Source: Candidatus Krumholzibacteriia bacterium
GTDB taxonomy: Bacteria; Krumholzibacteriota; Krumholzibacteriia; Krumholzibacteriales; Krumholzibacteriaceae
Direction: 5' to 3'
Length of the DNA stretch: 64,000 nucleotides
NCBI GenBank assembly: GCA_023131975.1
Contig: JAGLYV010000054.1
Coordinates: forward strand, 5,191 to 69,190
Positions 20,441 through 63,121 of this stretch are shown in pieces; within the stretch, counting starts at the first letter, position 1, and each line of letters begins with the position of its first letter. The translations under genes were made by a program, and so were the position numbers. The notes below the pieces were generated by a model that saw nothing but the letters and a program-made list of their open reading frames with translations, did not search any database and was not told the DNA's origin.

Positions 20441-20548
20441 TGCGCGGCATCGGCCCTATGTGGGCTTGTGCCTTGTCCCTTCGTATCCCCGAAAACCCTT
20501 ATTCAGTGCCGCCGGACCGGAATATCATTGAGTGACGAAATAAAATAT

Positions 20549-22239: not shown

Positions 22240-22281
22240 ACGGTCCGTCTCCACGCGGACTGAAAAGAAGGGGCTGGAGAA

Positions 22282-23496: not shown

Positions 23497-23534
23497 TCCT
23501 GTAAGAATCTGTTGGGCTGTCGAAAGGAGAAAAG

Positions 23535-30135: not shown

Positions 30136-30201
30136 ATTCCGGGGGAGAAGATATTTCACCGGGTGAATGAATGCCAGCCGGACAGACTCGTTAGGAAGAA
30201 T

Positions 30202-32751
30202 ATGTCGGAGAAGATCCTGAACAGATACCTTGGCCTGATGGTTTTCCTGATCAGCGCCGTTGTATATATAATGACTATGGGTGGTACGGTCTCTTTCTGG
30301 GACAGCGGGGAATTCATCGCGACATCTTACATCCTGGGGATACCCCACTCTCCGGGTACTCCCCTTTACGTGCTTGTGGGCAGGGTCTTCGCCCTGCTTC
30401 CTGTTGGTATTTCCGTAGCCCAGAAAGTGAATCTGCTCTCAGCCGTCTCCGCCGCTCTCGGCGTCCTGATGGCTTATGTGTCGATGGTATATGTCGTTCG
30501 ATTCATGTTCGGGAAAGCCGTTACAGCTGCCGGCAGGATCGCAAGGTACGCCGGCCCCCTGGCAGGTTCGATGTTTCTCACATTCAGCGATACATACTGG
30601 ACCGATGCCGCGGAAGCGGAAGTGTACGCTCTGAGTTCATTCGTGATAGGACTCTGCACGGTCCTTGCCCTGAGATGGCTCAAGAATCCGGCTGGAGAGC
30701 TCGGTGAGGATGTCCGGAAAGCTATCCGGGAAAAGACCGATGGAGCCAGGGGAAACGCGCTTGTCGAAAAAAATGCGAGAGCGAAAAAGAGAGATTCGAG
30801 AAACCTTGTACTTCTTATCATCTACCTGCTTTCTCTAGGTATCGGATTCCATCTGGGAACGATCCTCGTATTCGGTGGAATCTTTATCATGTTTTTGATG
30901 GTCAGGAAGAAATCGTTCAGCAACTTCGAACTGATCGCGTTTACATTCGGTTTTGCCGTCATGGTCGCCGACATGACCGTGCACAGGCAGCCTGCTTTTA
31001 CGATAGTCGGACTGGCTGTCTTTGCCGTGCTGATAATCTGGATGACCATGTCGGAGGGCAACTTTGTCCTGACGGCGACCGCCCTGTTCGTCCTCGGCAT
31101 ATCCGTTCACTTGTTCCTCTATATCCGGTCAGGACTCGATCCGGCGATCGATGAGGTGAATCCGGAGACCTGGAAGGCTCTCTACGCGCATCTGAGAAGG
31201 GAGCAGTATCCCGCGATAAACGTGTTCACGAGAAAGGCTTCGATTCTTTTTCAGCTCGATCATTTCGCCAGGTATTTTCAAAACCAGTTCAGACTCTTCG
31301 GCGATTATTTTGTCGGAGGTATCAATATTGGTCGTCTCAGTTCCGTTATCCCGTTGTTACTTGGCCTGTACGGGATCATGGCGAACTACATCCGTGAAAA
31401 AAAGACCTGGGCACTGAATTTCACGAACCTGCTACTCAATTCTGTCGGACTGATCATCTTTCTGAATTTCAGCGACCAGGAAGTCAGGGAGCGGGACTAT
31501 TTCTATGGAGGAGCGTTCTATCTCTTTGCGATATTCATAGGGATCGGAGCGACTTCGTTCCTCATTCTCATACTGGAGCAGGCAAAAAAGACTGCCGGCG
31601 ATCTGAGGCGATTCGTCGTTCCAGCCGCGATCTTTATTCTGGTCTGTTCCATCCTTCCGGCAGGCTACCAGTGGCACAGGCACGACAAGTCAGATTTCTT
31701 CATACCACGCGATTACGCCTACAACATCCTGTGCGGTCTCGAACCTGACGCGATACTGTTTACCAACGGAGATAACGATACCTTTCCGCTCTGGTACCTG
31801 CAGTATGTGGAAGGATACAGGACCGATGTCAGGGTAGCAAACCTGAGTCTTCTCAATACATCGTGGTATATTAAACAGGTGAGAGACACCGAGCCTTCAG
31901 TGCCTCTGGACCTGACAGACGTGGAGATCGACAGGCTTCGACCGATCCGTGTGGAAGACGGTATCCTGTGGACGAAAGATCTGGCGGTCAATCATATTAT
32001 CAGGGATGTAAACTGGAAACGGCCGGTATATTTTGCCGTGACCGTACCGGGCGATGTCTGGGAGAGATATTCGGACAACCTGGAGATGCAGGGTATGGTC
32101 AGGCGGCTGGTGGCAGGTAAGGGCCGGTTCATGGTGAACGATTTCATGATAACAAGGAATCTCGAGGAGATCTTCGAGTTCAGAGGATTCCTCACTGATG
32201 GCTGGCGGAGGGACGATTCCGTTTACAGGACCCGCGAAGTGGACAACATGTTCATAAATTTTTCGATCGCCGCGTTCCAGGTGGCCCAGAACAGAGCAAA
32301 AGACAACCTGCACGGGGAAGCGGTAAAATGGGCCGAGAGGTCGTATGTCTTCGGGCCCAGGTTCGAGTGGCCCAGAAAATATCTGGGGGTCTATTATTCC
32401 AGGAACAGGCAGTATGACAAGGCTGAGGAGCATTACCTCAACCTTCTGGCAGAAGAGCCATCCAGAGGTGATTTCTGGGTAGGCCTTTCATCTGTATACG
32501 AGAGGATGGGGGATCTTGAAAGGGCTGTCCAGACCCTCGAAGATGCTTCAAAGTCATCTCTTGACCACAGAGATATATTTGGACATGGCTTTCGCCTGGC
32601 AGCTACTCTCGGGCGAAGGGATCAGGCCGTCTCATTTGTGGAGAAGTGGATTGAGGGCCATCCCGAAGATACCGAATTTAAATCGCTTCTCGATGATATT
32701 GATACGATACTTCAGAATGAGTTCGGGCTGGGTGGGAGTGACGATAACTGA
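30202..32751 (+). CDS. DUF2723 / TMEM260-like GT-C membrane glycosyltransferase with C-terminal TPR repeats (paralog 2)
   Basis: It is about 60% identical to the upstream paralog and carries the same VSFWDSGEFIATSYILGIPHSPGTPLYV motif. The ATG at 30202 follows AGGAAG. The ORF-track start at 30163 is also possible. Confidence 0.75.
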   Translation: MSEKILNRYLGLMVFLISAVVYIMTMGGTVSFWDSGEFIATSYILGIPHSPGTPLYVLVGRVFALLPVGISVAQKVNLLSAVSAALGVLMAYVSMVYVVRFMFGKAVTAAGRIARYAGPLAGSMFLTFSDTYWTDAAEAEVYALSSFVIGLCTVLALRWLKNPAGELGEDVRKAIREKTDGARGNALVEKNARAKKRDSRNLVLLIIYLLSLGIGFHLGTILVFGGIFIMFLMVRKKSFSNFELIAFTFGFAVMVADMTVHRQPAFTIVGLAVFAVLIIWMTMSEGNFVLTATALFVLGISVHLFLYIRSGLDPAIDEVNPETWKALYAHLRREQYPAINVFTRKASILFQLDHFARYFQNQFRLFGDYFVGGINIGRLSSVIPLLLGLYGIMANYIREKKTWALNFTNLLLNSVGLIIFLNFSDQEVRERDYFYGGAFYLFAIFIGIGATSFLILILEQAKKTAGDLRRFVVPAAIFILVCSILPAGYQWHRHDKSDFFIPRDYAYNILCGLEPDAILFTNGDNDTFPLWYLQYVEGYRTDVRVANLSLLNTSWYIKQVRDTEPSVPLDLTDVEIDRLRPIRVEDGILWTKDLAVNHIIRDVNWKRPVYFAVTVPGDVWERYSDNLEMQGMVRRLVAGKGRFMVNDFMITRNLEEIFEFRGFLTDGWRRDDSVYRTREVDNMFINFSIAAFQVAQNRAKDNLHGEAVKWAERSYVFGPRFEWPRKYLGVYYSRNRQYDKAEEHYLNLLAEEPSRGDFWVGLSSVYERMGDLERAVQTLEDASKSSLDHRDIFGHGFRLAATLGRRDQAVSFVEKWIEGHPEDTEFKSLLDDIDTILQNEFGLGGSDDN

Positions 32752-51194: not shown

Positions 51195-52006
51195 ATCTTC
51201 CCGAACCACTTATTCCAGATGATATTCCGGAGGACAGGATGCCCAGCCTTCTGCGTAACTGGTTTCTCGGGGCGAAAGCGAAGAGATATCTGAGTAGAAG
51301 GAGATTCCAGACTGTGACGGGAATGCTTCCCGCCGCTTCGGGGGGAAGAGCCCTCGATGTGGGGTGTGGCTGGGGGTACAACCTGTTCCTTCTGAGGGCG
51401 AGAGGGTACAGGCCGGTCGGGATCGATATAGTGCAGAACGATTTTCTGGCGGCATCGATGATAGCGGACGCGAACGGTTATGAGATCGACCTTCTCGGAG
51501 CCGACATGAGTTCGCTTCCCTTCAGAAGCGAGCAGTTCGATGCGGTAACCGCTGTCGAGACTTTTGAACACGTATTTTATCCGGACCGGAAACGAGCCAT
51601 CAGGGAAGTAGGGAGGATCCTCGCTCCCGGAGGCACTTTCATTTTGTCCACACCGAACTACTTCAGCCTGGTCGAATCGGCGAAACGTATTGTAGTCGGT
51701 TTACCTTTTCTGAAACGTGTGCTGCCCGTTATGTGTTACCCCGTCGGTGACGTATCGCGGGAACAATACCATCCCTACAGTTATCACAGGCCGGCGCCGT
51801 TGAAGGAGATCGCAGGAATGCTCGAATCCGAGGGCTTTGAAATTATGGGGGCCAGAAAGATTATTTTCATCTGGAAATCGGTGCCCGATATACTATTTCC
51901 CCTGTGCCTGGCTGCCGAGACTTTTTTCGAGAAGATCCCCCTGATCAGAGGACTTGGATCCACTCTCGTCGTTGTAGCGAAAAAGAGAGTGGGAGGAAGT
52001 GGGTAA
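51191..52006 (+). CDS. Class I SAM-dependent methyltransferase
   Basis: The SAM motif ALDVGCGWGYN and motif II/III (DAVTAVETFEHV, PGGTFILSTPN) are present. The start is an ATGA overlap. Confidence 0.7.
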   Translation: MNLPEPLIPDDIPEDRMPSLLRNWFLGAKAKRYLSRRRFQTVTGMLPAASGGRALDVGCGWGYNLFLLRARGYRPVGIDIVQNDFLAASMIADANGYEIDLLGADMSSLPFRSEQFDAVTAVETFEHVFYPDRKRAIREVGRILAPGGTFILSTPNYFSLVESAKRIVVGLPFLKRVLPVMCYPVGDVSREQYHPYSYHRPAPLKEIAGMLESEGFEIMGARKIIFIWKSVPDILFPLCLAAETFFEKIPLIRGLGSTLVVVAKKRVGGSG

Positions 52007-52041
52007 TCGTTCGCGGGGACGATTATTTTCACTCTTTTTTT
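52004..52041 (+). terminator. Candidate intrinsic terminator closing the glycan island
   Basis: A stem TAATCGT/ACGATTA (52004-52010 / 52019-52025) has an 8-nt loop. It is followed by the T-rich tract TTTTCACTCTTTTTTT. Confidence 0.3.
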
Positions 52042-52114: not shown

Positions 52115-52147
52115 TTGACACGGTGGGAGGAAGTGGGATAAAGTGGG
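52115..52147 (+). promoter_or_regulatory. mraZ promoter (-35 TTGACA) overlapped by three GTGGG direct repeats at 10-bp phasing = MraZ operator
   Basis: TTGACA lies at 52115-52120. GTGGG occurs at 52123, 52133 and 52143 (GAAGTGGG, AAAGTGGG). The element lies about 100 nt upstream of mraZ. Two more GTGGG boxes at 51989 and 51999 have the same phasing. Confidence 0.6.
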
Positions 52148-52246
52148 GCTCAATGGTAGAAAGTGAGTCTGGAATGGCGAAAACAGGTAGACGCACCATT
52201 CAAGAGGACAACAGGTAACAGGTAACAGCGAGGAACGGAAACAGCG

Positions 52247-52681
52247 ATGCAGAATTTCTTGGGCGATTTTGACTGCGCACTTGATTCAAAGGGAAGGTTG
52301 ATGGTCCCTGCCAAGTTCAGGCATCTCGTGCCTGAGGCTGGCGGAGGTCTTTGGGTAATCACCTTGGGCAAGGATAAGTGCCTCAATCTCTACCCTCTCA
52401 GCGAGTGGGACGAGGAAGTAGTCAAAAAGCTTCATTCACTTCCCCCGGGTCCGGAGAAAAGAAAATACATCCGGTTCTACAGCCGGAAGTCGAGGACCAT
52501 CAATCTTGACAAATCGGGAAGAATCGCTATCCCTTCGAATTTCCTCGAGGCTATCGACAGTCCAGGAAAAGTGGTCGTCGTCGGTGTGCTCAATTACATT
52601 GAGATCTGGGCACCCGAAGAGTTCGAGAAGGCAAGTATCGAAGGTGACGAAGCATATCTTGAGGGTGAGTTTGAGATCTAG
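52247..52681 (+). CDS. mraZ: Transcriptional regulator MraZ
   Basis: Two MraZ repeats with DSKGRL and DKSGRI motifs are present. It is the first gene of the dcw cluster. Confidence 0.9.
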   Translation: MQNFLGDFDCALDSKGRLMVPAKFRHLVPEAGGGLWVITLGKDKCLNLYPLSEWDEEVVKKLHSLPPGPEKRKYIRFYSRKSRTINLDKSGRIAIPSNFLEAIDSPGKVVVVGVLNYIEIWAPEEFEKASIEGDEAYLEGEFEI

Positions 52682-52690
52682 GAAAGGGAT

Positions 52691-53059
52691 ATGAGGATCT
52701 ACAGGACAGATGTCGAGGGAATCGCGGTCTTCAGGATCACAGGAAACGTCCGGGAAGATGAGGCATTCATGCTGCTTCAGTTCATCGGTCGTGAATCCGG
52801 TGCGTTCAGAGGTTCGTTTATCCTCGATTTCCAGGGAGTCGAACATGTCGACTACCATGTCTTCGAACTTTTCGAGAAATGGTTTTCGGGAAGATCCGGA
52901 GTCGTCCTGAGTGGTCTGAGTGACTATCTCCTGGATATCTTCGCGTTTGTTCACCGCAAGAATGTCATACCGATCTTTCCTGACTGGAGAAAAGCCCTGT
53001 ACTTCCTGATGACCGAACGCGGCAAGGTGGGTTCTCCAGCCGCTTTCGCGATAGCCTGA
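52691..53059 (+). CDS. STAS-fold (anti-sigma-antagonist-like) small protein lacking the phosphorylatable Ser, inserted between mraZ and rsmH
   Basis: The 122-aa pattern (beta-alpha-beta, FILDFQGVEHVDYHVF, then VVLSGLSDYLLDIFAF...IPIFPDWRKAL) matches a SpoIIAA/STAS fold. DYHV replaces DSSG. Confidence 0.45.
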   Translation: MRIYRTDVEGIAVFRITGNVREDEAFMLLQFIGRESGAFRGSFILDFQGVEHVDYHVFELFEKWFSGRSGVVLSGLSDYLLDIFAFVHRKNVIPIFPDWRKALYFLMTERGKVGSPAAFAIA

Positions 53060-53078
53060 TATTGATAAATACGGAGTA

Positions 53079-53999
53079 ATGATAGTGGAGCATCTGCCTG
53101 TAATGGTAGAAGAAGTGACCGGTTATCTGATAACCGATCCGGAAGGTATTTACGTGGACGCTACTCTCGGGCTTGGTGGACATACTGAAAGTTTTCTCAA
53201 AGCGGCAGGTCCAAAGGCCAGGGTCATCGGGATAGATCTGGACGAAAACGCGATAAGAATGGCACGTGAGAGACTGGCTGAATACGGTGAACGTGTCACT
53301 TACGTATGTGGCAATTTCAGAGACATCGATACCCATCTTGGGGGAGGAAAATACAACGGGATCCTGGTGGATCTCGGTATGTCGTCATTTCAGATCTCGG
53401 ACAGGGAACGGGGATTCAGCTATATGGAAGATGGACCTCTGGGCATGTCGATGGGGACAGAAGGAAGATCGGTCAGATCCCTTCTGGCAGATGGAGAAGA
53501 GAAGGAGATCGCCGATATCATATGGAGATTCGGAGAGGAAAAGAAAAGTAGAAGAATAGCAAAGTGGATTGTAAAGACGCGTGAGAATGAGGAGATAGTG
53601 AGCACATCTCAGCTTCGTTTGATTGTGGAGAAGGCCCTCCCATCCCGGGGGCTGATCGGATCACTTTCCCGCGTTTTTCAGGCATTCAGAATATGGGCGA
53701 ACGATGAACTGGAAAACCTAAGAGCCTTCTTACCCCAGGCGGCCGCGCTCCTGATACCCGGCGGTCGCCTGGCGGTTCTCAGTTATCATTCGCTTGAGGA
53801 CCGGATCGTCAAAAATTATTTCCGACAGGAAGAAAAGGGATGTATATGTCCGCCGGATTTCCCGCAGTGCAACTGCGGAAGGGTACCTACCCTTAAATTA
53901 CTTATGCGGCGCGCGGGCAAGCCGTCCCTGGAAGAGATAGAGAGCAATCCAAGGTCCCGGAGCGCCAGGCTTCGGGTAGCAGAGAGGTTGGCCGTATGA
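53079..53999 (+). CDS. rsmH: 16S rRNA (cytosine1402-N4)-methyltransferase RsmH (MraW)
   Basis: HLPVMVEEV...YVDATLGLGGHT and the DLGMSSFQ motif are RsmH signatures. Confidence 0.9.
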   Translation: MIVEHLPVMVEEVTGYLITDPEGIYVDATLGLGGHTESFLKAAGPKARVIGIDLDENAIRMARERLAEYGERVTYVCGNFRDIDTHLGGGKYNGILVDLGMSSFQISDRERGFSYMEDGPLGMSMGTEGRSVRSLLADGEEKEIADIIWRFGEEKKSRRIAKWIVKTRENEEIVSTSQLRLIVEKALPSRGLIGSLSRVFQAFRIWANDELENLRAFLPQAAALLIPGGRLAVLSYHSLEDRIVKNYFRQEEKGCICPPDFPQCNCGRVPTLKLLMRRAGKPSLEEIESNPRSRSARLRVAERLAV

Positions 54000-54421
54000 A
54001 GACACACACTGATTATCTTGACGCTGTAACGCTGGTCATCAAGAGAGCCCTCGAGGGCAGGATCAGCCCATTGAACTTTCTTCTGATAGTGGGGTTTTTC
54101 TCGACCCTTGTCCTTCTTTACATATCGCTTCATGTACATTTTCAGACCCTGTCCGGGGAACTGAACGATGAAGTACGGCTCAGACAGGAGCTGACCGAGG
54201 AAAGGACATTCCTGACAGCAGAACACGATCGACTCAGTTCGCCTGAGAGGATCATACCCCTCGTGCAGGAACTTGGGTTGAGAGCCGGTTCAAGCGAAGA
54301 GGTAAAGAGAGTAGCTTTTTATAACAGCCGGAAGCTTTTTAAAAAAGAATCGGCCGGCTGGGCACAGATACAGCTTAACGAAGGCGGGAAATTACTTCCG
54401 CCTGACAGACCGGAGAATTGA
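53996..54421 (+). CDS. ftsL: Cell division protein FtsL-like (bitopic, coiled coil)
   Basis: A single TM helix LLIVGFFSTLVLLYISL and a periplasmic coiled coil are present. It sits between rsmH and ftsI. Confidence 0.6.
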   Translation: MKTHTDYLDAVTLVIKRALEGRISPLNFLLIVGFFSTLVLLYISLHVHFQTLSGELNDEVRLRQELTEERTFLTAEHDRLSSPERIIPLVQELGLRAGSSEEVKRVAFYNSRKLFKKESAGWAQIQLNEGGKLLPPDRPEN

Positions 54422-56586
54422 TGCCGAACAGGTATTCTGAATGGCGTATTCGCCTTGTCTCGATTATTGCCGCTCTAATTGTCTGCGTTCTTGTCTACAG
54501 AATCATCCAGGTCCAGATAATCCGTCATGATACTTATAGTGAAATGGCCCGAAAACAGCAGAAACGGAAGATCAACTGGCCTGCCAGGAGAGGGTCTATC
54601 TTCGACAGGAACGGTTATCCCGTCGCGGTATCCCACAATTCGTACGATATCGGTATTACACCCAGAGACTTTTCGCAGGCTGACGAGGCACTGAAAGAAT
54701 TATCCGAGGTCTCGGGGCGAAGCTTAAAGCAGCTGAGTCGGCTTTTGAGGAAGGATGCTCCGTACGTCCCCGTCGTGAAAGGTGTCAACCTGAGCGTTGA
54801 ACAGCATTTGAGGGTTTCTTCATTGCCTGGAGTGAAGCTCGATGCCTGTCCTGAAAGGCTGAATCCCCTGGGCGCTATGACACCCGGGTTTATCGGATCA
54901 GTCGATCACGGAGGTAATGGTAACGGTGGACTGGAGCTCTCCCTGCAGCAATATCTTCAGGGTTCGGATGGCTGGATTGTGATCAATAGAAGCGCGCGTG
55001 ATAAATCGTACAGGTCCGTGAACGCTCCAGGCAAGAAACCTGTGAATGGCCACAACATATTCCTGACAATAGACTCCGGGATACAGTCGATAGTCGATTT
55101 CGAACTCGAACAGGCCGTCGACCGATACGGAGCTGTCGGTGGAGCCGCGATAGTCATCGATCCCTGGACAGGAGACATCATCGCGTTTTCGGAAAAAGCT
55201 TCAAGCAGGGGGCGTGGATCGACCGATTGGAGGAGTTCCGGAACATTGTACAGCACCAGTTGCATCTTCGAACCGGGCTCGACTTTTAAACTCGTCACCG
55301 ACGCCTTCCTTCTGGAAAAGGGAAAAGTCGATCCATACGATGTCTTTTACGGTGAGAACGGAACAGCGAAATTCGATTTCGGCACTTTCCGGGACGATCA
55401 TCCCTATGAATGGCTGACTTTCAAGGAGTCTTTTGTCTTCTCAAGCAATATCTGCACGATAAAGGCGATGGGCGATACGGACAAAAGGGATTTTTACAGC
55501 TTTATACTGAACATGGGGTTCGGTGGCAGAACAGGAATCAGTACCCCTGCCGAATCGAAAGGCAGGCTTCGTGAAACAGACGAGTGGTCGGGCAGATCAC
55601 TGGCCAGCATATCGATCGGTCAGGAGATAGGAGTCACCGGGCTGCAGTTGGTAATGGCATATTGTGCCGTCGCAAACGGCGGGACCCTCGTAGCTCCGAG
55701 AGTGGCGCTGGAAGCACGGGACCAGGATGGCAGGACAGTGGAAAAATTCCCTGTTATCAAGGTCAGGCGGGTGTTTTCACCAGAGACAGCCGAGACGATG
55801 GTCGATTTTTGCAGAGGAGTGGTCAGGGAAGGTACCGGAACGAGGAGCGCGATCAGCGGGATTGAGATAGCCGGGAAGACCGGGACGGCCCAGAAATCGG
55901 ATGGTTACCGCTATATCGAGGGAAGATACGTGGCGAGTTTCGCGGGTTTCGCCCCGGCAGGCGATCCCAGGCTCGTCTGCCTGGTGATCCTCGACGAACC
56001 TGCCTACGCGTATCATTACGGCGGCACATCTGCCGGAGTCGCCTTCCGGAAAATAATAGAGGGAATAAACATGTCGACAGACATCTTCCTCGACAGGTCG
56101 AGAAGTATGGTGGCGATAGGCAGCGACGACGAAGAAAGAGTTGAAATCCCGAACCTTTTGAGGATGACAGCCGGTGAGGCGGAGACAGCGGCAAGGAAGC
56201 TGGGATTCAGGCTGGATTACAGTACTTCTGAAGGAGAGATATTTTCACAGGTCCCGGGTCCCGGGACCCTGGTCGAACCGGATGCTGGTATAGCTGTAGC
56301 CTTCAGGACAAGCGGAGTCGATACGAACAAGAAAGTATCGGTTCCCGATCTCAGGGGGCTTTCGATAAGAAAGGCTCGCAGAATGCTGATCGAATGCGGT
56401 CTGAAGTCATCTATCCGTGGATATGGAAGCGTGAGAAAGCAGACCCCGGGGGCTGGAGCAGTAGTCAGGGCCGGAGACAACGTGGTATTGCACTGCAGTT
56501 TTGGAAGCACGGCTCGCAGCCATGTCTCCGTACAGAGTTTTCGACGGGGTAGCCGAAGCGCAGATATCAGCAGGAGAAGAAATTGA
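54418..56586 (+). CDS. ftsI: Peptidoglycan D,D-transpeptidase FtsI (class B PBP) with two C-terminal PASTA domains
   Basis: The SxxK motif STFK, SSN and KTGT are present. Two PASTA repeats lie at the C-terminus (…LRMTAGEAETAARKLGF…; …LRGLSIRKARRMLIECGL…). Confidence 0.85.
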   Translation: MMPNRYSEWRIRLVSIIAALIVCVLVYRIIQVQIIRHDTYSEMARKQQKRKINWPARRGSIFDRNGYPVAVSHNSYDIGITPRDFSQADEALKELSEVSGRSLKQLSRLLRKDAPYVPVVKGVNLSVEQHLRVSSLPGVKLDACPERLNPLGAMTPGFIGSVDHGGNGNGGLELSLQQYLQGSDGWIVINRSARDKSYRSVNAPGKKPVNGHNIFLTIDSGIQSIVDFELEQAVDRYGAVGGAAIVIDPWTGDIIAFSEKASSRGRGSTDWRSSGTLYSTSCIFEPGSTFKLVTDAFLLEKGKVDPYDVFYGENGTAKFDFGTFRDDHPYEWLTFKESFVFSSNICTIKAMGDTDKRDFYSFILNMGFGGRTGISTPAESKGRLRETDEWSGRSLASISIGQEIGVTGLQLVMAYCAVANGGTLVAPRVALEARDQDGRTVEKFPVIKVRRVFSPETAETMVDFCRGVVREGTGTRSAISGIEIAGKTGTAQKSDGYRYIEGRYVASFAGFAPAGDPRLVCLVILDEPAYAYHYGGTSAGVAFRKIIEGINMSTDIFLDRSRSMVAIGSDDEERVEIPNLLRMTAGEAETAARKLGFRLDYSTSEGEIFSQVPGPGTLVEPDAGIAVAFRTSGVDTNKKVSVPDLRGLSIRKARRMLIECGLKSSIRGYGSVRKQTPGAGAVVRAGDNVVLHCSFGSTARSHVSVQSFRRGSRSADISRRRN

Positions 56587-58067
56587 AGCTGGGACGACTG
56601 ACAGATGGGATCCTCGTGCGGAATATTAAGGAAATTCCTGAAATTGATATTCTGGGGATAACTGTAGATTCGAGAGATGTAAAACCGGGGTACCTCTTCA
56701 TAGCGGTAAGCGGGCATGCGAAAGATGGACATGAATATATCGGACAGGCAGTCGAGAATGGGGCTGCCGCAGTCGTCGTTGAAAAAGATATAGATGCGAA
56801 AGTCCCGGTCATCGTGGTGGATGACAGCCAGGCAGCCGAATCTCTGCTGTCCAGAAGATTCTATGAAGAGCCTGATATGCGGATGGTGCTGGCTGGTATC
56901 ACGGGGACGAACGGCAAGACCTCCACGGCATTTCTTGTGCAGTCTGTTTTCGAGCGTGCGATGGGACAGACCGGTATAATCGGCACGGTAGGGAATGGTG
57001 TGGGAAAAGACATCAGACCGTCGGACCAGACTACACCAGGAGCTTCCAGCCTGATTCGGATGCTTGCGGGGTTCCGCGACAGCGGATGTCGTTCGGCAGT
57101 CATGGAAGTGAGTTCTCATGCCGCGGTCCAGGGAAGGACGACGGGGCTGGAATTCGATGTCGGTGTCTTTACCAACATAACAAGGGACCATCTGGATTAT
57201 CATGGCACATTCGAGGAATATATCGAGGCGAAACGGATCTTCGTCGATTCTTTGAACGCCTCCGGCAGGATGAAAAAAGAAGGCGTCCTGGCCTATAACC
57301 TCGATGACGGCAATGTACGGAATGTGGCTGAACTATACAAAGGAAGAAAAATATCTTTTGGTCTGGGCAGTGGCGCTGAGATCAGAGCCGGATCGGTCCG
57401 GGCCGACCTGAACGGAAGCACGTTCGTTCTGGAGACGCCTGATGGTAGTATCGATATCGCTCTGAAGCTGCTTGGAGGATTTTCCATCTACAACGCCCTG
57501 TCAGCCGCGACCGCTGCTATCGCGATCGGTATTTCTCTCGAAGATATCAAGTCCGGGCTGGAATCGGTAGCAGCGATTCCTGGAAGATTCCAGATTGTTC
57601 GCGTGAATGAAGGTCCGGTGGTTGTTGTCGATTATGCTCACACTCCCGATGCCCTGGAAAGCCTGCTCAGTTTCTGCAGGGAACTTGGTCCGGCGAACCT
57701 GATATCCGTATTCGGGTGTGGAGGAGACCGGGACCGTGGGAAACGACCGATGATGGGAAAGATAGCGGCAGAGATCAGCGATCGCGTATACGTGACCAGC
57801 GACAATCCCAGGATGGAAGACCCCGAGGCGATCATCGACGAAGTGATGGAAGGGGTCGGGGAGGGGACTACCAGCGTGACGAGGATAGCTGATAGAGGTG
57901 AGGCGATAGCGCTGGCGATCAGGGGGGCAGGAAAAGATGATCTGGTGGTTCTTGCCGGCAAGGGACACGAGGAGTACCAGGTGGTCGGAACGGATAAAAT
58001 ACATTTCAGTGACATAGAGGAAGCGGGCAAGGTCCTGCATGGCCTGGAGGTCGGATATCAGGATTGA
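56583..58067 (+). CDS. murE: UDP-N-acetylmuramoyl-L-alanyl-D-glutamate--2,6-diaminopimelate ligase
   Basis: GITGTNGKTST is present. The DNPR motif (TSDNPRMEDP) indicates meso-DAP specificity. Confidence 0.85.
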   Translation: MKLGRLTDGILVRNIKEIPEIDILGITVDSRDVKPGYLFIAVSGHAKDGHEYIGQAVENGAAAVVVEKDIDAKVPVIVVDDSQAAESLLSRRFYEEPDMRMVLAGITGTNGKTSTAFLVQSVFERAMGQTGIIGTVGNGVGKDIRPSDQTTPGASSLIRMLAGFRDSGCRSAVMEVSSHAAVQGRTTGLEFDVGVFTNITRDHLDYHGTFEEYIEAKRIFVDSLNASGRMKKEGVLAYNLDDGNVRNVAELYKGRKISFGLGSGAEIRAGSVRADLNGSTFVLETPDGSIDIALKLLGGFSIYNALSAATAAIAIGISLEDIKSGLESVAAIPGRFQIVRVNEGPVVVVDYAHTPDALESLLSFCRELGPANLISVFGCGGDRDRGKRPMMGKIAAEISDRVYVTSDNPRMEDPEAIIDEVMEGVGEGTTSVTRIADRGEAIALAIRGAGKDDLVVLAGKGHEEYQVVGTDKIHFSDIEEAGKVLHGLEVGYQD

Positions 58068-59481
58068 GTTCGAATGGATAGCTGAACAACTCAGAAAAAG
58101 AGGGTTCAAGAGAACCGTGTCTTTTGATGGAGAAGCCGCGGGGTTCACGATCGATACCCGTACCGACTGCCAGGGCAGGATCTATGTAGCTCTGAAGGGT
58201 GAGAATCTGGACGGGCATGATTTTGTCGGTGCCGCGGTCGATGGCGGAGCTTCGGCTGTAATCGTCGATCGCGACTGGATGATGGGATCGACAGATGTAG
58301 TGGAGGAATTACGGGAAAAAGGTTCTCTGATCCTCGATGTCGATGACACGCTGAAAGCTCTTCAGCATCTTGCTTTCCGATGGAGAGACAGGGTGGCCCC
58401 GAAGGTCCTGGCAATAACGGGGAGTACCGGGAAGACGGGAACGAAGGAGATCGCCAGATCGATACTGTCGGGGAGATACAGAGTGCATGCGACAGAGGGC
58501 AACTACAATAATCATATTGGCCTTCCGCTCACCATCCTTTCAATGCCTGAAGATACGGAAGTCCTTGTGGTCGAGATGGGAGCAAGTGGCAGAGGCGAGA
58601 TCGCGGTGCTTGCCGGGATCGCCAGGCCGGATGTCGGTGTGATTACGAATATCGGCCCCTCTCATCTGGAGTTTTTCGGAAGTCTCAAGGGCGTTGCCAG
58701 AGCAAAGTCAGAACTCATAGCCAGGATGAACGGGAAAAACACGGTCGTACTTCCAGCGGATGACGAGTTCTTCGAATATCTCAGTAGCAGGACTGAAGCA
58801 GAGATAATCTCCTTCGGGTTTTCGGAGAGCGCGGAATTCGGGATAAAAGATCTGACCAGCAGGGAAGACGCGGGGTTTTCCTTTTCACTGACCGGGACGG
58901 CGATGGAGACGAGAAGACATGGAAAGCACAATGTCCTGAACGCCGCGGCGGCAGTCGCCGCAGTATCCGTTCTCGGCCTCGGTCCTGACGACGCGGTAGC
59001 AGCGGTAGCCGCTTCCGAGCCGGTAAGAGGACGCGGAGTGATCTTCGACATAGCGGGATTGAAAGTGATCGACGATTCGTACAATTCGAACCCGGTTTCC
59101 CTGAGAGCAGCCATCGATTCATTCATGGAAATGGAGATCGAGGGAAAGAGATGGCTCGTACTTGGTGATATGCTGGAACTTGGAAAAACCAGCGCGGAAC
59201 TACACGCGGAGGCCGGTATTTATTGTGGAAAGGCGGGCGTGCACGGACTTCTGACTCTTGGGAAAGACACGGTCTCCCTGAGTAGAGAAGCAGCCGTTCA
59301 GAGAAAAGCCCCGGAATCGATAAGTCATTTCCTGGAAGTGGAGAAGCTGGCTCTGTATCTCGATTCGATGCTGGAGGGCGGGGATGCTGTCCTTATAAAG
59401 GGTTCAAGGGGAATGCATATGGAAATGGTCATCGAGGAACTCGAACGTCTTCGTGATTCAGAGAAAAGGAGAGTGGACTGA
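58039..59481 (+). CDS. murF: UDP-N-acetylmuramoyl-tripeptide--D-alanyl-D-alanine ligase
   Basis: The Mur ligase P-loop ITGSTGKTGTKE is present. It sits between murE and mraY. Confidence 0.8.
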   Translation: MAWRSDIRIEFEWIAEQLRKRGFKRTVSFDGEAAGFTIDTRTDCQGRIYVALKGENLDGHDFVGAAVDGGASAVIVDRDWMMGSTDVVEELREKGSLILDVDDTLKALQHLAFRWRDRVAPKVLAITGSTGKTGTKEIARSILSGRYRVHATEGNYNNHIGLPLTILSMPEDTEVLVVEMGASGRGEIAVLAGIARPDVGVITNIGPSHLEFFGSLKGVARAKSELIARMNGKNTVVLPADDEFFEYLSSRTEAEIISFGFSESAEFGIKDLTSREDAGFSFSLTGTAMETRRHGKHNVLNAAAAVAAVSVLGLGPDDAVAAVAASEPVRGRGVIFDIAGLKVIDDSYNSNPVSLRAAIDSFMEMEIEGKRWLVLGDMLELGKTSAELHAEAGIYCGKAGVHGLLTLGKDTVSLSREAAVQRKAPESISHFLEVEKLALYLDSMLEGGDAVLIKGSRGMHMEMVIEELERLRDSEKRRVD

Positions 59482-60566
59482 TGCTTTACCATCTCCTGTA
59501 TCCATTGAAAGAATACTTTTTCGCGTTCAACGTATTCAGGTATATCACTTTCAGGGCAGCCTACGCGACTGTGACAGCCCTGCTTATCTGCTTCATCTTT
59601 GGTCCAAAAATGATCAAGTGGCTTCAGAGGCTGCAGATAGGGCAGAGGATCAGGAAAGAAGTCCCCGACAGGCATAACGATAAAGCCGGGACGCCGACGA
59701 TGGGTGGGGTCCTTCTGATATCGGCCATTATTATTCCGACGCTGTTCTGGGCGAATCTTCGGAATCCATACATACAGGTAGCGATCGTTGTGACGATATG
59801 GACTGGGCTGATAGGGTTTCTGGACGATTACCTCAGCGTAGTGAAGAAAAGGGACAAGGGACTGGTAGGACGATATAAACTGCTTGGCCAGTTTTTGTTC
59901 GGGGCTATTCTCGGCATCTATCTCTACACCAATCCGCTCGTCGCGGAAGGAATGACAAGAACAGCGGTTCCTTTTTTCAAGGACCTCTATATAGACTGGG
60001 GATATTTCTATATCCCACTGGTGATGTTTGTGATTACGGGAACGTCCAACGCGGTCAACATCACCGATGGACTTGACGGACTTGCGACCGGTGTCGCCGC
60101 ATTCTGTTTTCTGGCCTTTGCGCTGCTCGCCTACCTGAGCGGGAACAGAGTCTTTTCCGAGTACCTGAACATTTTCTACCAGGAGGGAGCCGGAGAACTG
60201 GCCATCTACTGCATGTCAGTGGTCGGTGCCTCTCTCGGGTTCCTGTGGTTCAATACTCATCCGGCCCAGATCTTTATGGGCGATACCGGTTCGCTTGCGC
60301 TAGGTGGAGCACTCGGGACGGTTGCCGTTCTGTTGAAGAGTGAACTTCTCCTGCTCGTGATAGGAGGCGTGTTCGTCGCGGAGATCGTGTCCGTGATGAT
60401 CCAGGTGACTTCCTTCCGATTGACGGGAAAGAGAATCTTCAGGATGGCTCCGATCCACCACCACTTCGAATTAAAAGGATGGAGCGAGAGCCAGATAGTG
60501 GTGCGCTTCTGGATAGTCGCGGCGCTTTTCCTGTTACTCGGGATGAGCACCCTGAAACTTCGATGA
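59481..60566 (+). CDS. mraY: Phospho-N-acetylmuramoyl-pentapeptide transferase
   Basis: GTPTMGG, NAVNITDGLDGLA and the HHHFE motif are present. The start is a TGATG overlap. Confidence 0.9.
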   Translation: MLYHLLYPLKEYFFAFNVFRYITFRAAYATVTALLICFIFGPKMIKWLQRLQIGQRIRKEVPDRHNDKAGTPTMGGVLLISAIIIPTLFWANLRNPYIQVAIVVTIWTGLIGFLDDYLSVVKKRDKGLVGRYKLLGQFLFGAILGIYLYTNPLVAEGMTRTAVPFFKDLYIDWGYFYIPLVMFVITGTSNAVNITDGLDGLATGVAAFCFLAFALLAYLSGNRVFSEYLNIFYQEGAGELAIYCMSVVGASLGFLWFNTHPAQIFMGDTGSLALGGALGTVAVLLKSELLLLVIGGVFVAEIVSVMIQVTSFRLTGKRIFRMAPIHHHFELKGWSESQIVVRFWIVAALFLLLGMSTLKLR

Positions 60567-60602
60567 TCTTCAGTTGCCGGTGACCGGCAGAGGCAAGGAA
60601 GA

Positions 60603-61952
60603 ATGACTGACAAGGGAAATGAAATAACTCTGGTGCTGGGTCTCGCGAGGAGCGGTCTCGCGGCGCTGAGGCTTCTTGGCAGGGAAGGTGTGAAGGTCAG
60701 GGCGGCGGACGAGAATCAGGATATATCTTTGCCCGAAGATCTTGCGGGAATCGATCTGAGAAAAGGAAAACTCGATATTTCGGTACTCGATGGAGTATCG
60801 AGAATGGTGATCAGTCCGGGAGTGCCCGTCGATCATCCGATCGTCAGGGGAGCGAGAGAAACGGGAGTCAGAGTGATCAGCGAACTGGAACTGGCTTACA
60901 ACTATGTTTCGGCCCCTGTCATAGCAGTCACCGGCACGAACGGTAAATCGACCACTGTCTCAATGATCGGCGCGATACTTGAGGAGGCCGGTAAGGACGT
61001 AATAGTGGCGGGAAACGTCGGTATCCCATTCAGCTCGGTCGCTGGAGACCTTGGGCCGGAAGGTTATTATGTCATAGAAGTCAGCAGTTTCCAGCTGGAG
61101 GCCGTCGACAGATTCCGCCCCGTGTGCGCGGGGATCCTCAATCTTACGCCGGACCATCACGATCGATACGGAAACCTGGACGATTACTATGATACGAAGA
61201 AACGCATATATGCCAATTGCCGGAAAGAAGACAGGTTTTTCTATAATCATGATGATTCGAGGTGCAGGAGCGCGGCAGAAGAATTTCCGGGTACGATCAT
61301 TCCATTCTCGTCCGTGGGCAGGATCGACAGGGGCGTGTTTCTGGATGGAGACAGTCTTGTCAGGATACTTTCAGATGGAAGCGAAGAAAAGGTGATGGAA
61401 AGAAATGACCTCGGTGTCGTCGGCCTTCACAATGTAGAGAACGCGCTGTCCGCGATTGCCGCGGTGGAGTGTCTTGGGATCAGTGCTGAGGCATGCCGAC
61501 GGGCCTTGTCCTCGTTCAGGGGACTCAGACACAGGATGGAAAAGATAGCCGAGATCAGGGGTGTGTCTTTCTTCAACGATTCGAAGGCCACGAATGTGGA
61601 AGCCGCGGTAAAGAGTCTCATCGGACTGGACAGACCCGTGGTTCTGATCGCGGGGGGTTACAACAAGGGCGATGATTTTTCCGGTCTTCTGGAAATCGTT
61701 CAGAAGGTAAGAGCGGTTGTCACTCTGGGAAAAGCTGCTTCGTTGATCGAAGACGTTCTGGCCGGCAAGGTGGAGACATACAGGAGCGCGAGTATGGAGG
61801 ATGCGGTGGGGAAAGCGGCCGGAATAGCAGAAGAAGGGGACATGGTCATCCTTTCTCCGGCCTGCGCGAGTTTCGATATGTTTGATGATTTCGAACACAG
61901 GGGCGATGTCTTTGCTGAATGCGTCAATGATCTCAAAAGGAGTAAGGATTGA
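60603..61952 (+). CDS. murD: UDP-N-acetylmuramoylalanine--D-glutamate ligase
   Basis: IAVTGTNGKSTT is present and the MurD domain order is intact. Confidence 0.85.
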   Translation: MTDKGNEITLVLGLARSGLAALRLLGREGVKVRAADENQDISLPEDLAGIDLRKGKLDISVLDGVSRMVISPGVPVDHPIVRGARETGVRVISELELAYNYVSAPVIAVTGTNGKSTTVSMIGAILEEAGKDVIVAGNVGIPFSSVAGDLGPEGYYVIEVSSFQLEAVDRFRPVCAGILNLTPDHHDRYGNLDDYYDTKKRIYANCRKEDRFFYNHDDSRCRSAAEEFPGTIIPFSSVGRIDRGVFLDGDSLVRILSDGSEEKVMERNDLGVVGLHNVENALSAIAAVECLGISAEACRRALSSFRGLRHRMEKIAEIRGVSFFNDSKATNVEAAVKSLIGLDRPVVLIAGGYNKGDDFSGLLEIVQKVRAVVTLGKAASLIEDVLAGKVETYRSASMEDAVGKAAGIAEEGDMVILSPACASFDMFDDFEHRGDVFAECVNDLKRSKD

Positions 61953-63121
61953 AGAAGGGGTCTAAATACGATATGAACCTTTTCTTCGTGACGTGCCTGC
62001 TGGTAGCGCTGGGCCTCATAATGGTTTTCTCTGCCAGCCAGGTCATCGGCCGTGAACGGTTCAGCTCGTCATTCTTTTTTATTCAGCGCCACGCGATAAG
62101 AGTAGGAATCGGCATGTGCTGTCTTTTCGTTTTCATGAAGATCCCCTTTGGTATCTACAGGAAGGTCTCTGTGTGGGGACTCGGCCTGGCTGTAATGCTG
62201 CTTGTCTCGATCTTTATCTGGGGTCATGAAGCACGGGGCGCCAGTCGCTGGCTGCCGGTTTTCAAGTTCATGCTTCAGCCGGTCGAAGTCGCGAAGTTCG
62301 CCCTGATAATATTTATTTCAGCATGGATATCCGAGCGCAGGAAAAAGATAAAGGACCTCAAGACAGGTTATCTTCCGGTTCTCGGGATCGTGACCCTGAT
62401 GGCCGTTCTCGTGATATTGCAACCGAACGTGAGTAACGCGGCCCTGATAGTCGTGCTTTCCATGGTACTTCTGTTCATAGGCGGGTGCAGGATAATCCAT
62501 CTTGTGAGTTCAGCCGGGATAATGGCCGCTATCGCGGTTCCGGTCCTTTACAGCTTTCCTCATGTCAGGGAACGATTCTCCGGTCTTCTGGACAGTGGGA
62601 CAGATCTCCAGGGCCCCGGTTGGCAGTTGAACCAGTCGCTCATAGCGATAGGCTCGGGGTTTATCTGTGGTTGTGGTCCCGGCAGGGGGCATCAGAAATA
62701 CAGTTTTCTGCCGGACGCCCATACAGACTTCATCTATTCGATAATAGGCGAGGAATTCGGGCTCATAGGGACCCTGGTCGTACTCACGCTGTTTATAATC
62801 ATTTTCAAAAAGGCCGTGGGTACCGCGAAAAGGGCTCCAGACACCTTTGGATACCTGCTTGCGAACGGTATCGGACTGGCGATATTTTCTACGGCAATGA
62901 TCAATATCTCCATGACACTGGGTCTGCTTCCTGTCGTAGGTCTGCCGCTGCCTCTGGTGAGTTACGGTGGATCATCCCTCGTGACCTCGATGGCAGCTAT
63001 CGGGATACTGTTGAACATATCATCCCGCGGACGAAAACCCTCTAAACGAGCGGGGAAGGACATTGGACGGTCTGGCAGTGGAATATACGCGAGAAGACGT
63101 CCAGCGAAGGATACGGTATGA
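61949..63121 (+). CDS. ftsW: Peptidoglycan glycosyltransferase FtsW (SEDS family)
   Basis: About 10 TM helices are predicted. A SEDS region (…PDAHTDFIYSIIGEE…) is present. It sits between murD and murG. Confidence 0.85.
   Translation: MKKGSKYDMNLFFVTCLLVALGLIMVFSASQVIGRERFSSSFFFIQRHAIRVGIGMCCLFVFMKIPFGIYRKVSVWGLGLAVMLLVSIFIWGHEARGASRWLPVFKFMLQPVEVAKFALIIFISAWISERRKKIKDLKTGYLPVLGIVTLMAVLVILQPNVSNAALIVVLSMVLLFIGGCRIIHLVSSAGIMAAIAVPVLYSFPHVRERFSGLLDSGTDLQGPGWQLNQSLIAIGSGFICGCGPGRGHQKYSFLPDAHTDFIYSIIGEEFGLIGTLVVLTLFIIIFKKAVGTAKRAPDTFGYLLANGIGLAIFSTAMINISMTLGLLPVVGLPLPLVSYGGSSLVTSMAAIGILLNISSRGRKPSKRAGKDIGRSGSGIYARRRPAKDTV

What the first reader, a model, noticed from the sequence alone, without database searches (positions are those of the whole stretch)
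52691..53059. STAS-fold small protein inserted between mraZ and rsmH in the dcw cluster
The mraZ-rsmH junction is almost universally direct. Here a 122-aa ORF with an anti-sigma-antagonist (STAS) like pattern is wedged between them. It has 9-nt and 19-nt spacers and sits under the MraZ-controlled promoter. The position of the phosphorylatable serine (DSSG) reads DYHV, so it would be a non-phosphorylatable STAS module. It could be a lineage-specific regulator of division or cell-wall synthesis.
Basis: partly seen in the sequence, partly recalled or inferred. Interest (0 to 1): 0.65.

Follow-up and report, generated by a model that had tools for sequence, protein, structure and literature searches.

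The report
Tyrosine-type STAS gene between mraZ and rsmH

Summary
ORF 52691-53059 (+, 122 aa) lies 9 nt after mraZ and 19 nt before rsmH. Upstream is a sigma-70-like promoter overlapped by three GTGGG MraZ boxes at 10-bp spacing. The gene is real: there are homologues down to 46% identity, dN/dS is 0.07-0.43, and its composition is native.

It has a STAS fold. The AF2 model has pLDDT 81, the top 47 PDB matches are all STAS domains, and hhalign gives E 1e-20 to 1e-24. Tyr55 aligns with the phospho-serine of SpoIIAA.

The main new result is that the gene is not specific to Krumholzibacteriota. It belongs to a wider STAS clade with the signature His52-x-x-Tyr55-[R/H/K] ... Tyr79. Every member whose neighbourhood I could read lies between mraZ and rsmH: 12 of 12 loci outside Krumholzibacteriota and 16 of 16 inside (mraZ readable in 15). 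The outside loci carry names such as Eisenbacteria, Latescibacteria, Myxococcota and 'Deltaproteobacteria'. A Ser-type STAS picked up by the same search is not in a dcw cluster. I found no literature or curated model describing this.

Function is inferred only. The protein is most likely a phosphoserine-independent binding adaptor of the MraZ/RsmH module. I rate it a new variant of a known kind, with interest about 0.6.

The parts
51989..52003 (+). Exact 15-nt copy (GTGGGAGGAAGTGGG) of the first two MraZ boxes, overlapping the last codons of the upstream methyltransferase gene. It is a possible auxiliary MraZ site.
   Evidence: two exact copies in the window, 0 expected; a similar pair lies about 255 nt upstream of mraZ in L003, L005 and L008. 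It may instead reflect coding constraint.
52001..52028 (+). Terminator-like hairpin just after the upstream methyltransferase gene. It marks the likely start of a new transcription unit.
   Evidence: consensus scan only.
52115..52144 (+). Sigma-70-like promoter (TTGACA, 18 nt, TAAAGT), the candidate Pmra.
   Evidence: 10 of 12 matches. The TTGACA and the following repeats are conserved in related loci.
52123..52167 (+). MraZ-box array: GTGGG x3 at 10-bp period (52123-52147), followed by degenerate ATGGT and GTGAG repeats. It overlaps the promoter spacer and the -10 element.
   Evidence: 1 match against 0.01 expected; equivalent repeats lie upstream of mraZ in nearly all related loci. MraZ boxes are known from Eraso et al. 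2014, as summarised in PMC8475190.
52247..52681 (+). mraZ (144 aa), the dcw-operon repressor.
   Evidence: Pfam MraZ, E 6.8e-25, two stretches.
52682..52690 (+). 9-nt spacer carrying a purine-rich ribosome-binding site (GGAAAGGGA).
52691..53059 (+). Gene X: a 122-aa single-domain Tyr-type STAS protein. Secondary structure is b1 2-8, b2 11-20, a1 22-36, b3 43-53, a2 55-65, b4 71-74, a3 78-87, b5 95-96, a4 99-113, with a disordered tail at 114-122. Signature residues are His52, Tyr55, His56, Asp78-Tyr79 and Asp98-Trp99-Arg100.
53060..53078 (+). 19-nt spacer with a ribosome-binding site (ACGGAG). No terminator or promoter was detected in it.
53079..53999 (+). rsmH (mraW), the 16S rRNA m4C1402 methyltransferase (306 aa).
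   Evidence: Methyltransf_5, E 8e-93.
53996..54421 (+). ftsL-like gene (141 aa). Its start overlaps the rsmH stop.
   Evidence: weak FtsL_2 hit. Its position is conserved in all loci.
54418..63121 (+). [quoted passage not shown]

Best explanation
**What is shown.** Gene X is a genuine member of the mraZ-led dcw operon and is under purifying selection. It encodes a stand-alone STAS-fold protein. It belongs to a STAS clade for which I found no prior description. In that clade the phospho-acceptor Ser of anti-sigma antagonists is replaced by Tyr, inside the motif His-x-x-Tyr-[Arg/His/Lys], and a second Tyr is conserved at the N-terminus of helix a3. In every locus examined, this clade is encoded between mraZ and rsmH.

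**What is inferred (mechanism).**
- X is transcribed from the MraZ-repressed promoter and translated in step with MraZ and RsmH.
- It acts as a small binding adaptor. It uses the canonical STAS docking edge, meaning the C-terminal ends of the parallel strands and the N-termini of helices a2, a3 and a4, where His52, Tyr55, Tyr79 and Asp98-Trp99-Arg100 lie.
- Its target is the MraZ/RsmH regulatory module. My preferred version is that it binds MraZ and tunes its auto-repression of the dcw operon. That would give a physical basis to the MraZ-RsmH antagonism known from E. coli.
- Because the Ser is absent and no kinase or phosphatase genes accompany it, control would not be by Ser phosphorylation. 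It would depend on stoichiometry, on a ligand, or on modification of the Tyr/His site.

**Confidence.** About 0.95 for identity, fold and operon membership. About 0.45 that it acts on the MraZ/RsmH module by direct binding, and about 0.3 for MraZ specifically. The confidence value given for this explanation (0.45) refers to the mechanism.
For: **Real gene.** Homologues reach down to 46% identity. dN/dS is 0.07-0.43. Composition is native.

**STAS fold.**
- AF2 gives pLDDT 81.2, pTM 0.76 and the b-b-a-b-a-b-a-b-a order.
- In Foldseek against PDB, the top 47 hits (E<=1e-3) are all STAS domains, with RsbS at TM 0.75 and SpoIIAA at 0.70.
- hhalign gives E 7.9e-24 against Tyr-type STAS and 2.1e-20 against Ser-type STAS.

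**Tyr at the phosphosite.**

**Clade signature.** His52 is present in 19 of 20 verified dcw-embedded members, Tyr55 in 17 of 20 and Tyr79 in 19 of 20.

**Position.**
- Among the 16 Krumholzibacteriota loci, rsmH is downstream in all 16 and mraZ is upstream in the 15 where that side is present.
- All 12 Tyr-type loci outside that phylum have both neighbours.
- The one Ser-type STAS caught by the same scan is not in a dcw cluster.
- Gene junctions are tight or overlapping.

**Co-inheritance.** STAS divergence tracks that of its neighbours (rho 0.65 with RsmH, 0.59 with MraZ).

**Regulation.** A promoter with MraZ boxes is present and conserved across lineages. The MraZ repressor role, MraZ/MraW antagonism and the need for cis linkage are summarised in PMC8475190.

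**No classical partners nearby.** There are no kinase, phosphatase or sigma genes in the window.
Against: - No interaction was tested or modelled. The tools give no multimer prediction and no model coordinates, so the clustering of His52, Tyr55 and Tyr79 on one face is inferred from fold topology and not measured.
- Position cannot tell MraZ from RsmH, or from a downstream dcw product, as the target.
- Co-transcription is inferred from spacing and from the lack of terminators. It is not shown by RNA data.
- All genomes are uncultured MAGs, and only a 64-kb window of this genome was visible, so an unlinked kinase or partner cannot be excluded.
- The Krumholzibacteriota family is only modestly closer to Tyr-type than to Ser-type STAS profiles (E 7.9e-24 against 2.1e-20). 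Common origin of all dcw-embedded STAS genes therefore rests mainly on the shared motif and position.
- The pairwise-identity correlations use non-independent pairs.
Confidence: 0.45

Rival explanations
1. X is a ligand sensor. The His/Tyr/basic/Tyr pocket at the helix N-termini binds an anionic small molecule, for example a nucleotide or a UDP-linked peptidoglycan precursor. X would report that pool to the division operon. This can coexist with the adaptor model.
For: - The conserved polar and aromatic residues sit where helix dipoles converge (positions).
- Nucleotide binding has been reported for some STAS domains (my own knowledge, not tested here).
- Related STAS proteins are fused to c-di-GMP-binding PilZ domains.
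Against: - No ligand was tested.
- No recognisable nucleotide-binding motif is present.
- The basic residue is variable (H/R/K, and S in one member).
- The PilZ fusions lack the His, and their genomic context was not examined.
Confidence: 0.15
2. X acts on a downstream dcw product and not on MraZ or RsmH. Examples are the cytoplasmic parts of FtsL, FtsI or FtsW, or a Mur ligase. It would work as an assembly or activity modulator, in the way MlaB supports the MlaF ATPase.
For: - X is in the same operon as ftsL, ftsI and murE-ftsW in all loci.
- MlaB shows that a stand-alone STAS protein can work without a kinase (my own knowledge). P0186 gives a weak MlaB hit.
Against: - The gene is always placed exactly between mraZ and rsmH and never elsewhere in the cluster, in 28 of 28 loci.
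- The downstream genes differ across lineages: FtsL of 105-170 aa, and FtsI with or without PASTA domains. The flanking pair stays constant.
Confidence: 0.15
3. X is a classical partner-switching antagonist that has become constitutive. It sequesters an unlinked RsbW/SpoIIAB-type anti-sigma kinase but cannot be switched off by Ser phosphorylation. This would tie a sigma factor to dcw expression.
For: - The closest structures are SpoIIAA, RsbV, RsbS and RsfB.
- Sources annotate relatives as 'anti-anti-sigma factor'.
Against: - There is no kinase, phosphatase or sigma gene in the 64-kb window or in any of the 28 flanking regions.
- All members score below the TIGR00377 cutoff.
- The Ser-to-Tyr change with a bulky His and Tyr reshapes the kinase-docking loop.
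- The strict linkage to mraZ and rsmH is not explained.
Confidence: 0.1
4. X is a spurious ORF, or the real gene is the 172-aa antisense ORF at 52436-52954.
For: - The precomputed Pfam field is empty for all close homologues.
- A long antisense ORF exists.
Against: - dN/dS is 0.07-0.43 in the + frame.
- The protein is conserved at 46-97% identity with constant length.
- The AF2 STAS fold is confident.
- hhalign E-values are 1e-20 to 1e-24.
- The antisense ORF would also run through mraZ.
Confidence: 0.01

Closest known systems
Anti-sigma-factor antagonists SpoIIAA / RsbV / RsfB (STAS, TIGR00377)
   Same: Size of about 115-125 aa, a single STAS domain and the b-b-a-b-a-b-a-b-a topology. The conserved loop at the b3-a2 junction is in the same place. 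Foldseek TM is 0.6-0.7, and the Tyr-type profile matches SpoIIAA at E 1.8e-14.
   Different: Tyr55 replaces the phospho-Ser, and His52 and Tyr79 are new conserved residues. All members score below the TIGR00377 cutoff, and X itself gets no hit. There is no adjacent kinase, phosphatase or sigma gene. The gene is embedded between mraZ and rsmH.
RsbS (stressosome STAS scaffold)
   Same: It gives the best structural superposition (6jhk, TM 0.75; 7b0u, 0.75). It is also a single-domain STAS protein that works by binding partners.
   Different: RsbS has a phosphorylatable Ser59 and is encoded with rsbR and rsbT. None of these features is present here.
MlaB
   Same: A stand-alone STAS protein that works without a dedicated kinase, as an accessory subunit of another protein (my own knowledge).
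   Different: No mlaFED genes are nearby. Only one relative gives a weak hit (26.7 bits against a cutoff of 90). No MlaB structure is among the top 50 Foldseek matches.
C-terminal STAS domain of SLC26/SulP transporters
   Same: The fold (TM 0.6-0.73 to SLC26A11, prestin and YchM STAS). These domains also lack a phospho-Ser.
   Different: X is a free 122-aa cytoplasmic protein with no membrane domain.
Canonical mraZ-rsmH module of the dcw cluster (E. coli, Mycoplasma)
   Same: The promoter is overlapped by 10-bp-spaced TGGG-type MraZ boxes. The gene order is mraZ, rsmH, ftsL, ftsI, murE and so on.
   Different: A third gene is fixed between mraZ and rsmH. The searched literature does not describe this.

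Membership tests
STAS domain superfamily (Pfam PF01740 / SpoIIAA-like fold) | SpoIIAA-like alpha/beta fold (b-b-a-b-a-b-a-b-a) | tested here: met
   The AF2 model has pLDDT 81.2 and pTM 0.76 with the right order of elements. All top 47 Foldseek PDB hits are STAS domains.
STAS domain superfamily (Pfam PF01740 / SpoIIAA-like fold) | Significant sequence-profile match | tested here: met
   X alone is below the Pfam cutoff (15.2 against 22.6 bits). The family profile gives hhalign probability 99.3-99.6% and E 2e-20 to 8e-24 against STAS alignments whose members pass Pfam.
Anti-sigma-factor antagonist (SpoIIAA/RsbV type, TIGR00377) | Phosphorylatable Ser/Thr at the N-terminus of helix a2 (DSSG motif) | tested here: not met
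   Tyr55 occupies that column. Across the clade the residue is Tyr, or rarely Phe or Arg.
Anti-sigma-factor antagonist (SpoIIAA/RsbV type, TIGR00377) | Score above the curated family cutoff | tested here: not met
   There is no NCBIfam hit for X or P0016. Relatives score 23-46 bits against a cutoff of 53.45.
Anti-sigma-factor antagonist (SpoIIAA/RsbV type, TIGR00377) | Encoded with a cognate GHKL anti-sigma kinase and/or a PP2C phosphatase and a sigma factor | tested here: not met
   None is present in the 64-kb window or in the flanks of 28 related loci. Unlinked genes elsewhere in the genomes could not be checked.
MlaB | Encoded with mlaFED, and matching the MlaB model | tested here: not met
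   No mla genes are in any flank. NF033618 gives only 26.7 bits (cutoff 90), and for one relative only.
SLC26/SulP transporter STAS domain | Fused to a SulP membrane domain | tested here: not met
   X is a stand-alone ORF of 122 aa, bounded by the mraZ stop and the rsmH start.
dcw operon member (proposed 'dcw-embedded Tyr-type STAS' clade) | Located between mraZ and rsmH on the same strand with short or overlapping junctions | tested here: met
   True for the window, for the 16 Krumholzibacteriota loci (mraZ side readable in 15) and for the 12 loci from other lineages.
dcw operon member (proposed 'dcw-embedded Tyr-type STAS' clade) | Signature His-x-x-Tyr-[R/H/K] at b3/a2 and Ser/Asn-x-Tyr at the start of a3 | tested here: met
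   X has H52-V-D-Y55-H56 and S77-D78-Y79. The positions are conserved in 17-19 of 20 verified members and are invariant or nearly so in A6.
dcw operon member (proposed 'dcw-embedded Tyr-type STAS' clade) | Co-transcription with mraZ and rsmH from the MraZ-regulated promoter | not testable with these tools
   Only indirect evidence is available: the promoter and MraZ boxes, no terminator-like site on the + strand between the genes, and 9-nt and 19-nt spacers. RNA data are needed.

The most novel reading that the evidence does not exclude
The Tyr-type STAS protein is the missing signal-input subunit of the enigmatic MraZ-RsmH module. Its His52/Tyr55/Tyr79 pocket would bind a metabolite such as a nucleotide-linked cell-wall precursor, or would be covalently modified on Tyr. 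This would make the protein switch between MraZ and RsmH. The result would be a partner switch independent of phosphoserine that sets transcription of the whole division and cell-wall operon according to precursor supply or ribosome maturation.
Probability: 0.1. Interest if true: 0.85.

Novelty: new variant of a known kind. Interest (0 to 1): 0.6.

Why it matters
mraZ and rsmH head one of the most conserved gene clusters in bacteria. What controls MraZ, and why RsmH antagonises it, is still unclear; PMC8475190 calls their function 'elusive for many years'.

A third protein is fixed between them in several phyla. It is built on the classic partner-switching fold but has a remodelled acceptor site. 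That makes it a concrete candidate for the missing regulatory link.

It gives direct experiments to run: binding to MraZ or RsmH, effect on operator occupancy, and ligand screens. It also defines a STAS subclass (His-x-x-Tyr ... Tyr) that current curated models miss or label 'hypothetical'.

Tried and rejected
1. **Spurious ORF or antisense gene (52436-52954).** Rejected by dN/dS, conservation and fold.
2. **Partner genes nearby.** I annotated essentially the whole window with Pfam. There is no GHKL kinase, PP2C phosphatase or sigma factor.
3. **A solved structure of a Tyr-type member.** None exists. 4hyl from Haliangium looked promising but is Ser-type ('YMSSAG').
4. **A curated model for the clade.** There is none in NCBIfam.
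5. **L014 as a case of an intact STAS gene with a decayed mraZ.** The apparent truncation is an N-masked stretch.
6. **mraZ and X in the same frame in the window** (TAG plus three codons), which would allow a read-through fusion. The frames differ in L001, so this is coincidence.
7. **AFDB fold search.** The library was unavailable.
8. **Metagenome scans with the broad Tyr-type alignments A3 and A4.** The narrower A5 worked.
9. **First literature search.** It was swamped by the surname 'Mraz' and the word 'stasis'. Whole-word searches found nothing relevant.
10. **A fused MraZ-X AF2 run.** Considered and not run, because the tool returns no inter-domain confidence or coordinates, so it could not test an interface.
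11. **Eraso et al. 2014 (PMC4010979).** Not held, so I cite it through PMC8475190.

Full report
**1. The observation**

Upstream is mraZ (52247-52681; Pfam MraZ, E 6.8e-25). Downstream is rsmH (53079-53999; Methyltransf_5, E 8e-93). After that come an ftsL-like gene, ftsI with two PASTA domains, murE, murF, mraY, murD and ftsW.

The spacers are 9 nt and 19 nt, and each holds a purine-rich ribosome-binding site. About 100 nt upstream of mraZ there is a strong sigma-70-like promoter (TTGACA-18-TAAAGT, 52115-52144). Its spacer and -10 region are covered by GTGGG-N5-GTGGG-N5-GTGGG (52123-52147). That pattern occurs once in the window against 0.01 expected, and two degenerate repeats follow it in the same 10-bp phase. 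This is the architecture of MraZ boxes described for E. coli, as summarised in PMC8475190.

A terminator-like hairpin follows the preceding gene (52001-52028). No terminator-like site lies on the + strand between mraZ and rsmH. Co-transcription under MraZ control is therefore a well-founded inference, but it has not been shown.

**2. It is a real gene**

A search of 5.8 billion proteins returned 16 homologues at 97-46% identity. All are about 125 aa, none has a precomputed Pfam domain, and the few that carry names come from Candidatus Krumholzibacteria or Krumholzibacteriota. Twenty columns are invariant in their alignment.

Nei-Gojobori dN/dS is 0.14-0.18 between the window and its unsaturated relatives, and 0.07-0.43 among closer pairs. 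GC and GC3 match the neighbours. The 172-aa antisense ORF (52436-52954) is a shadow ORF.

**3. It has a STAS fold**

- Alone, X gives only a sub-threshold Pfam STAS hit (E 0.018), but the hit covers nearly the whole model. Fifteen of 17 family members give the same weak hit.
- The family profile finds RsfB, another anti-sigma antagonist, and the prestin STAS domain as its only PDB matches.
- AlphaFold2 with the family alignment gives pLDDT 81.2 and pTM 0.76, with the order b-b-a-b-a-b-a-b-a and a disordered tail.
- In Foldseek against the PDB, all 47 matches with E<=1e-3 are STAS domains: RsbS at TM 0.75, SpoIIAA at 0.70, and also RsbV and SLC26 STAS domains.
- Profile-profile comparison gives 99.3-99.6% probability, with E 2e-20 to 8e-24.

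**4. The phosphosite**

Three independent alignments place Tyr55 of X on the phospho-serine. 'DSSG reads DYHV' is correct.

**5. The main new finding: a wider Tyr-type clade always at the same locus**

An exhaustive HMMER search of 1.84 billion cluster representatives found seven close representatives (E<=1e-14). After a sharp drop it found ordinary STAS proteins (Pfam check). I aligned all hits to the family profile. Fifty stretches have the usual Ser at the phosphosite column. Twenty-one have Tyr, inside the motif [V/I]-x-His-x-x-Tyr-[R/H/K], and they also have a second Tyr at the start of helix a3, which corresponds to Tyr79 of X.

I then looked at the genomic context of these Tyr-type proteins. 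Every one I could read lies between mraZ and rsmH:

| Protein or group | Locus |
|---|---|
| P0097 | L017 |
| P0114 | L018 |
| P0109 | L019 |
| P0095 | L020 |
| P0096 | L021 |
| P0054 | L022 |
| P0184 | L023 |
| P0186 | L024 |
| P0031/P0042/P0081 group | L025-L027 |
| P0083 | L029 |

That is 12 of 12. Of the 16 Krumholzibacteriota loci, rsmH is downstream in all 16, and mraZ is upstream in the 15 where that side of the contig exists.

The lineages clearly differ:

- Source names include Candidatus Eisenbacteria, Latescibacteria bacterium DG_63, Myxococcota bacterium and Deltaproteobacteria bacterium.
- The upstream genes differ: glycan-synthesis genes, an RND pump, carD, or RNase H.
- The FtsL and FtsI types differ as well.

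The one Ser-type STAS captured by the same pattern scan (L028, 'VEFVDSSGLG') has neither neighbour, so it serves as a small negative control.

Over 20 verified dcw-embedded members, the conserved residues in X numbering are Gly18, Asp46, Phe47, His52 (19 of 20), Tyr55 (17 of 20, otherwise Phe or Arg), Tyr79 (19 of 20), Ile83 and Ala102. STAS divergence between loci tracks that of RsmH (rho 0.65) and MraZ (rho 0.59), compared with 0.74 for MraZ against RsmH. This fits inheritance together with the operon, although the pairs are not independent.

MraZ-box repeats directly after a TTGACA element are visible upstream of mraZ in essentially all of these loci.

No solved structure is Tyr-type. No NCBIfam model captures the clade. 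Full-text searches for mraZ/rsmH/dcw together with STAS or anti-sigma antagonist found nothing relevant, and a dcw synteny survey does not mention it. All members come from metagenome-assembled genomes, and no cultured organism appeared.

**6. How it most likely works**

Shown:
- It is a small cytoplasmic STAS protein.
- The Ser acceptor is replaced.
- Three conserved loops lie at the C-terminal ends of strands b3, b4 and b5 and the N-termini of helices a2, a3 and a4. These are His52-x-x-Tyr55-His56, Ser74-Gly-Leu-Ser-Asp78-Tyr79, and Pro97-Asp-Trp-Arg100.
- The gene is strictly and anciently linked to mraZ and rsmH.
- No kinase, phosphatase or sigma gene lies nearby.

Inferred:
- In alpha/beta folds of this kind those loops lie on one edge of the sheet.
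- X therefore probably keeps a binding function on the canonical face, with new chemistry.
- Its partner is probably encoded next to it.
- In E. coli and Mycoplasma, MraZ represses the operon, MraZ and RsmH antagonise each other by an unknown route, and repression needs cis linkage. I therefore commit to X being a stoichiometric adaptor of the MraZ/RsmH module. Most likely it binds MraZ and tunes auto-repression, independently of Ser phosphorylation.

I put about 0.45 on action on this module and about 0.3 on MraZ specifically.

The rivals are a small-molecule sensor (0.15, compatible with the main model), a modulator of downstream divisome or Mur proteins (0.15), a constitutive antagonist of an unlinked anti-sigma kinase (0.1), and a spurious ORF (0.01).

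**7. Comparison with known systems**

X works like a STAS partner-binding module and is a member of the STAS superfamily. It fails the defining tests for an anti-sigma antagonist: there is no Ser or Thr acceptor, it scores below the curated cutoff, and it has no cognate kinase context. It also fails the tests for MlaB and for transporter STAS domains. It is best described as a new variant, a dcw-embedded Tyr-type STAS clade.

**8. Verdict**

The claim of lineage specificity is wrong in an interesting direction, because the arrangement spans several phyla. The function remains inferred. Interest is 0.6: the finding is a conserved and apparently undescribed third member of a much-studied but poorly understood two-gene module. 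It is limited by the lack of cultured hosts and of any direct evidence for a partner.

Noticed in passing
window 51989-52003 (and about 255 nt upstream of mraZ in L003, L005, L008): An exact 15-nt copy of the first two MraZ boxes (GTGGGAGGAAGTGGG) lies 134 nt upstream of the main operator, inside the last codons of the upstream methyltransferase gene. Similar pairs occur at the same distance in three relatives. It could be an auxiliary MraZ site, for example for looping, or just coding constraint.
   Followed up: partly
window 20316-20439 (+): An FMN riboswitch (Rfam RF00050, 109 bits) lies upstream of a riboflavin operon (ribD, ribE, ribBA, ribH at 20468-23999).
   Followed up: yes
window 24432-52006: A glycan or polysaccharide synthesis cluster of about 27 kb runs directly into the dcw operon. 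It includes two tandem paralogous genes for TMEM260-like O-mannosyltransferase plus TPR proteins (27571-30135 and 30163-32751). The FemAB-like acetyltransferase, flippase and GT4 genes just upstream of mraZ are also upstream of mraZ in the Eisenbacteria-type loci L017-L021.
   Followed up: partly
P0105-P0178, not in the window: A large family of 244-aa PilZ-STAS fusion proteins, named Omnitrophota in the sources, was pulled in by P0064. P0064 has Tyr at the phosphosite column but lacks the His. Their genomic context was not examined.
   Followed up: no
P0065, not in the window: A 203-aa protein fuses an N-terminal zinc ribbon (PF23545) to a STAS domain with His-x-x-Phe at the phosphosite. Its context is unknown.
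   Followed up: no
window 52247-53059: mraZ and X are in the same reading frame, separated only by TAG and three codons, so stop-codon read-through would give a fusion protein. The frames differ in L001, so this looks coincidental.
   Followed up: yes
L004, L009-L013 compared with the window: In one Krumholzibacteriota clade, MraZ is only 42-44% identical to the window's MraZ, while the STAS protein (49-53%) and RsmH (53-56%) are more conserved. MraZ appears to have diverged faster there.
   Followed up: no
window 54418-56586: The dcw-encoded FtsI-type PBP carries two C-terminal PASTA domains, as do most homologous loci. The L022, L023 and L024 versions lack them.
   Followed up: no
window 12692-14167: A selenocysteine synthase gene (SelA, E 1.6e-129) is present, but there is no tRNA gene of any kind in the 64-kb window.
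   Followed up: no
window 52436-52954 (-): A 172-aa antisense ORF spans the mraZ/X junction. It is judged to be a shadow ORF, because selection and fold evidence support the + strand genes.
   Followed up: yes
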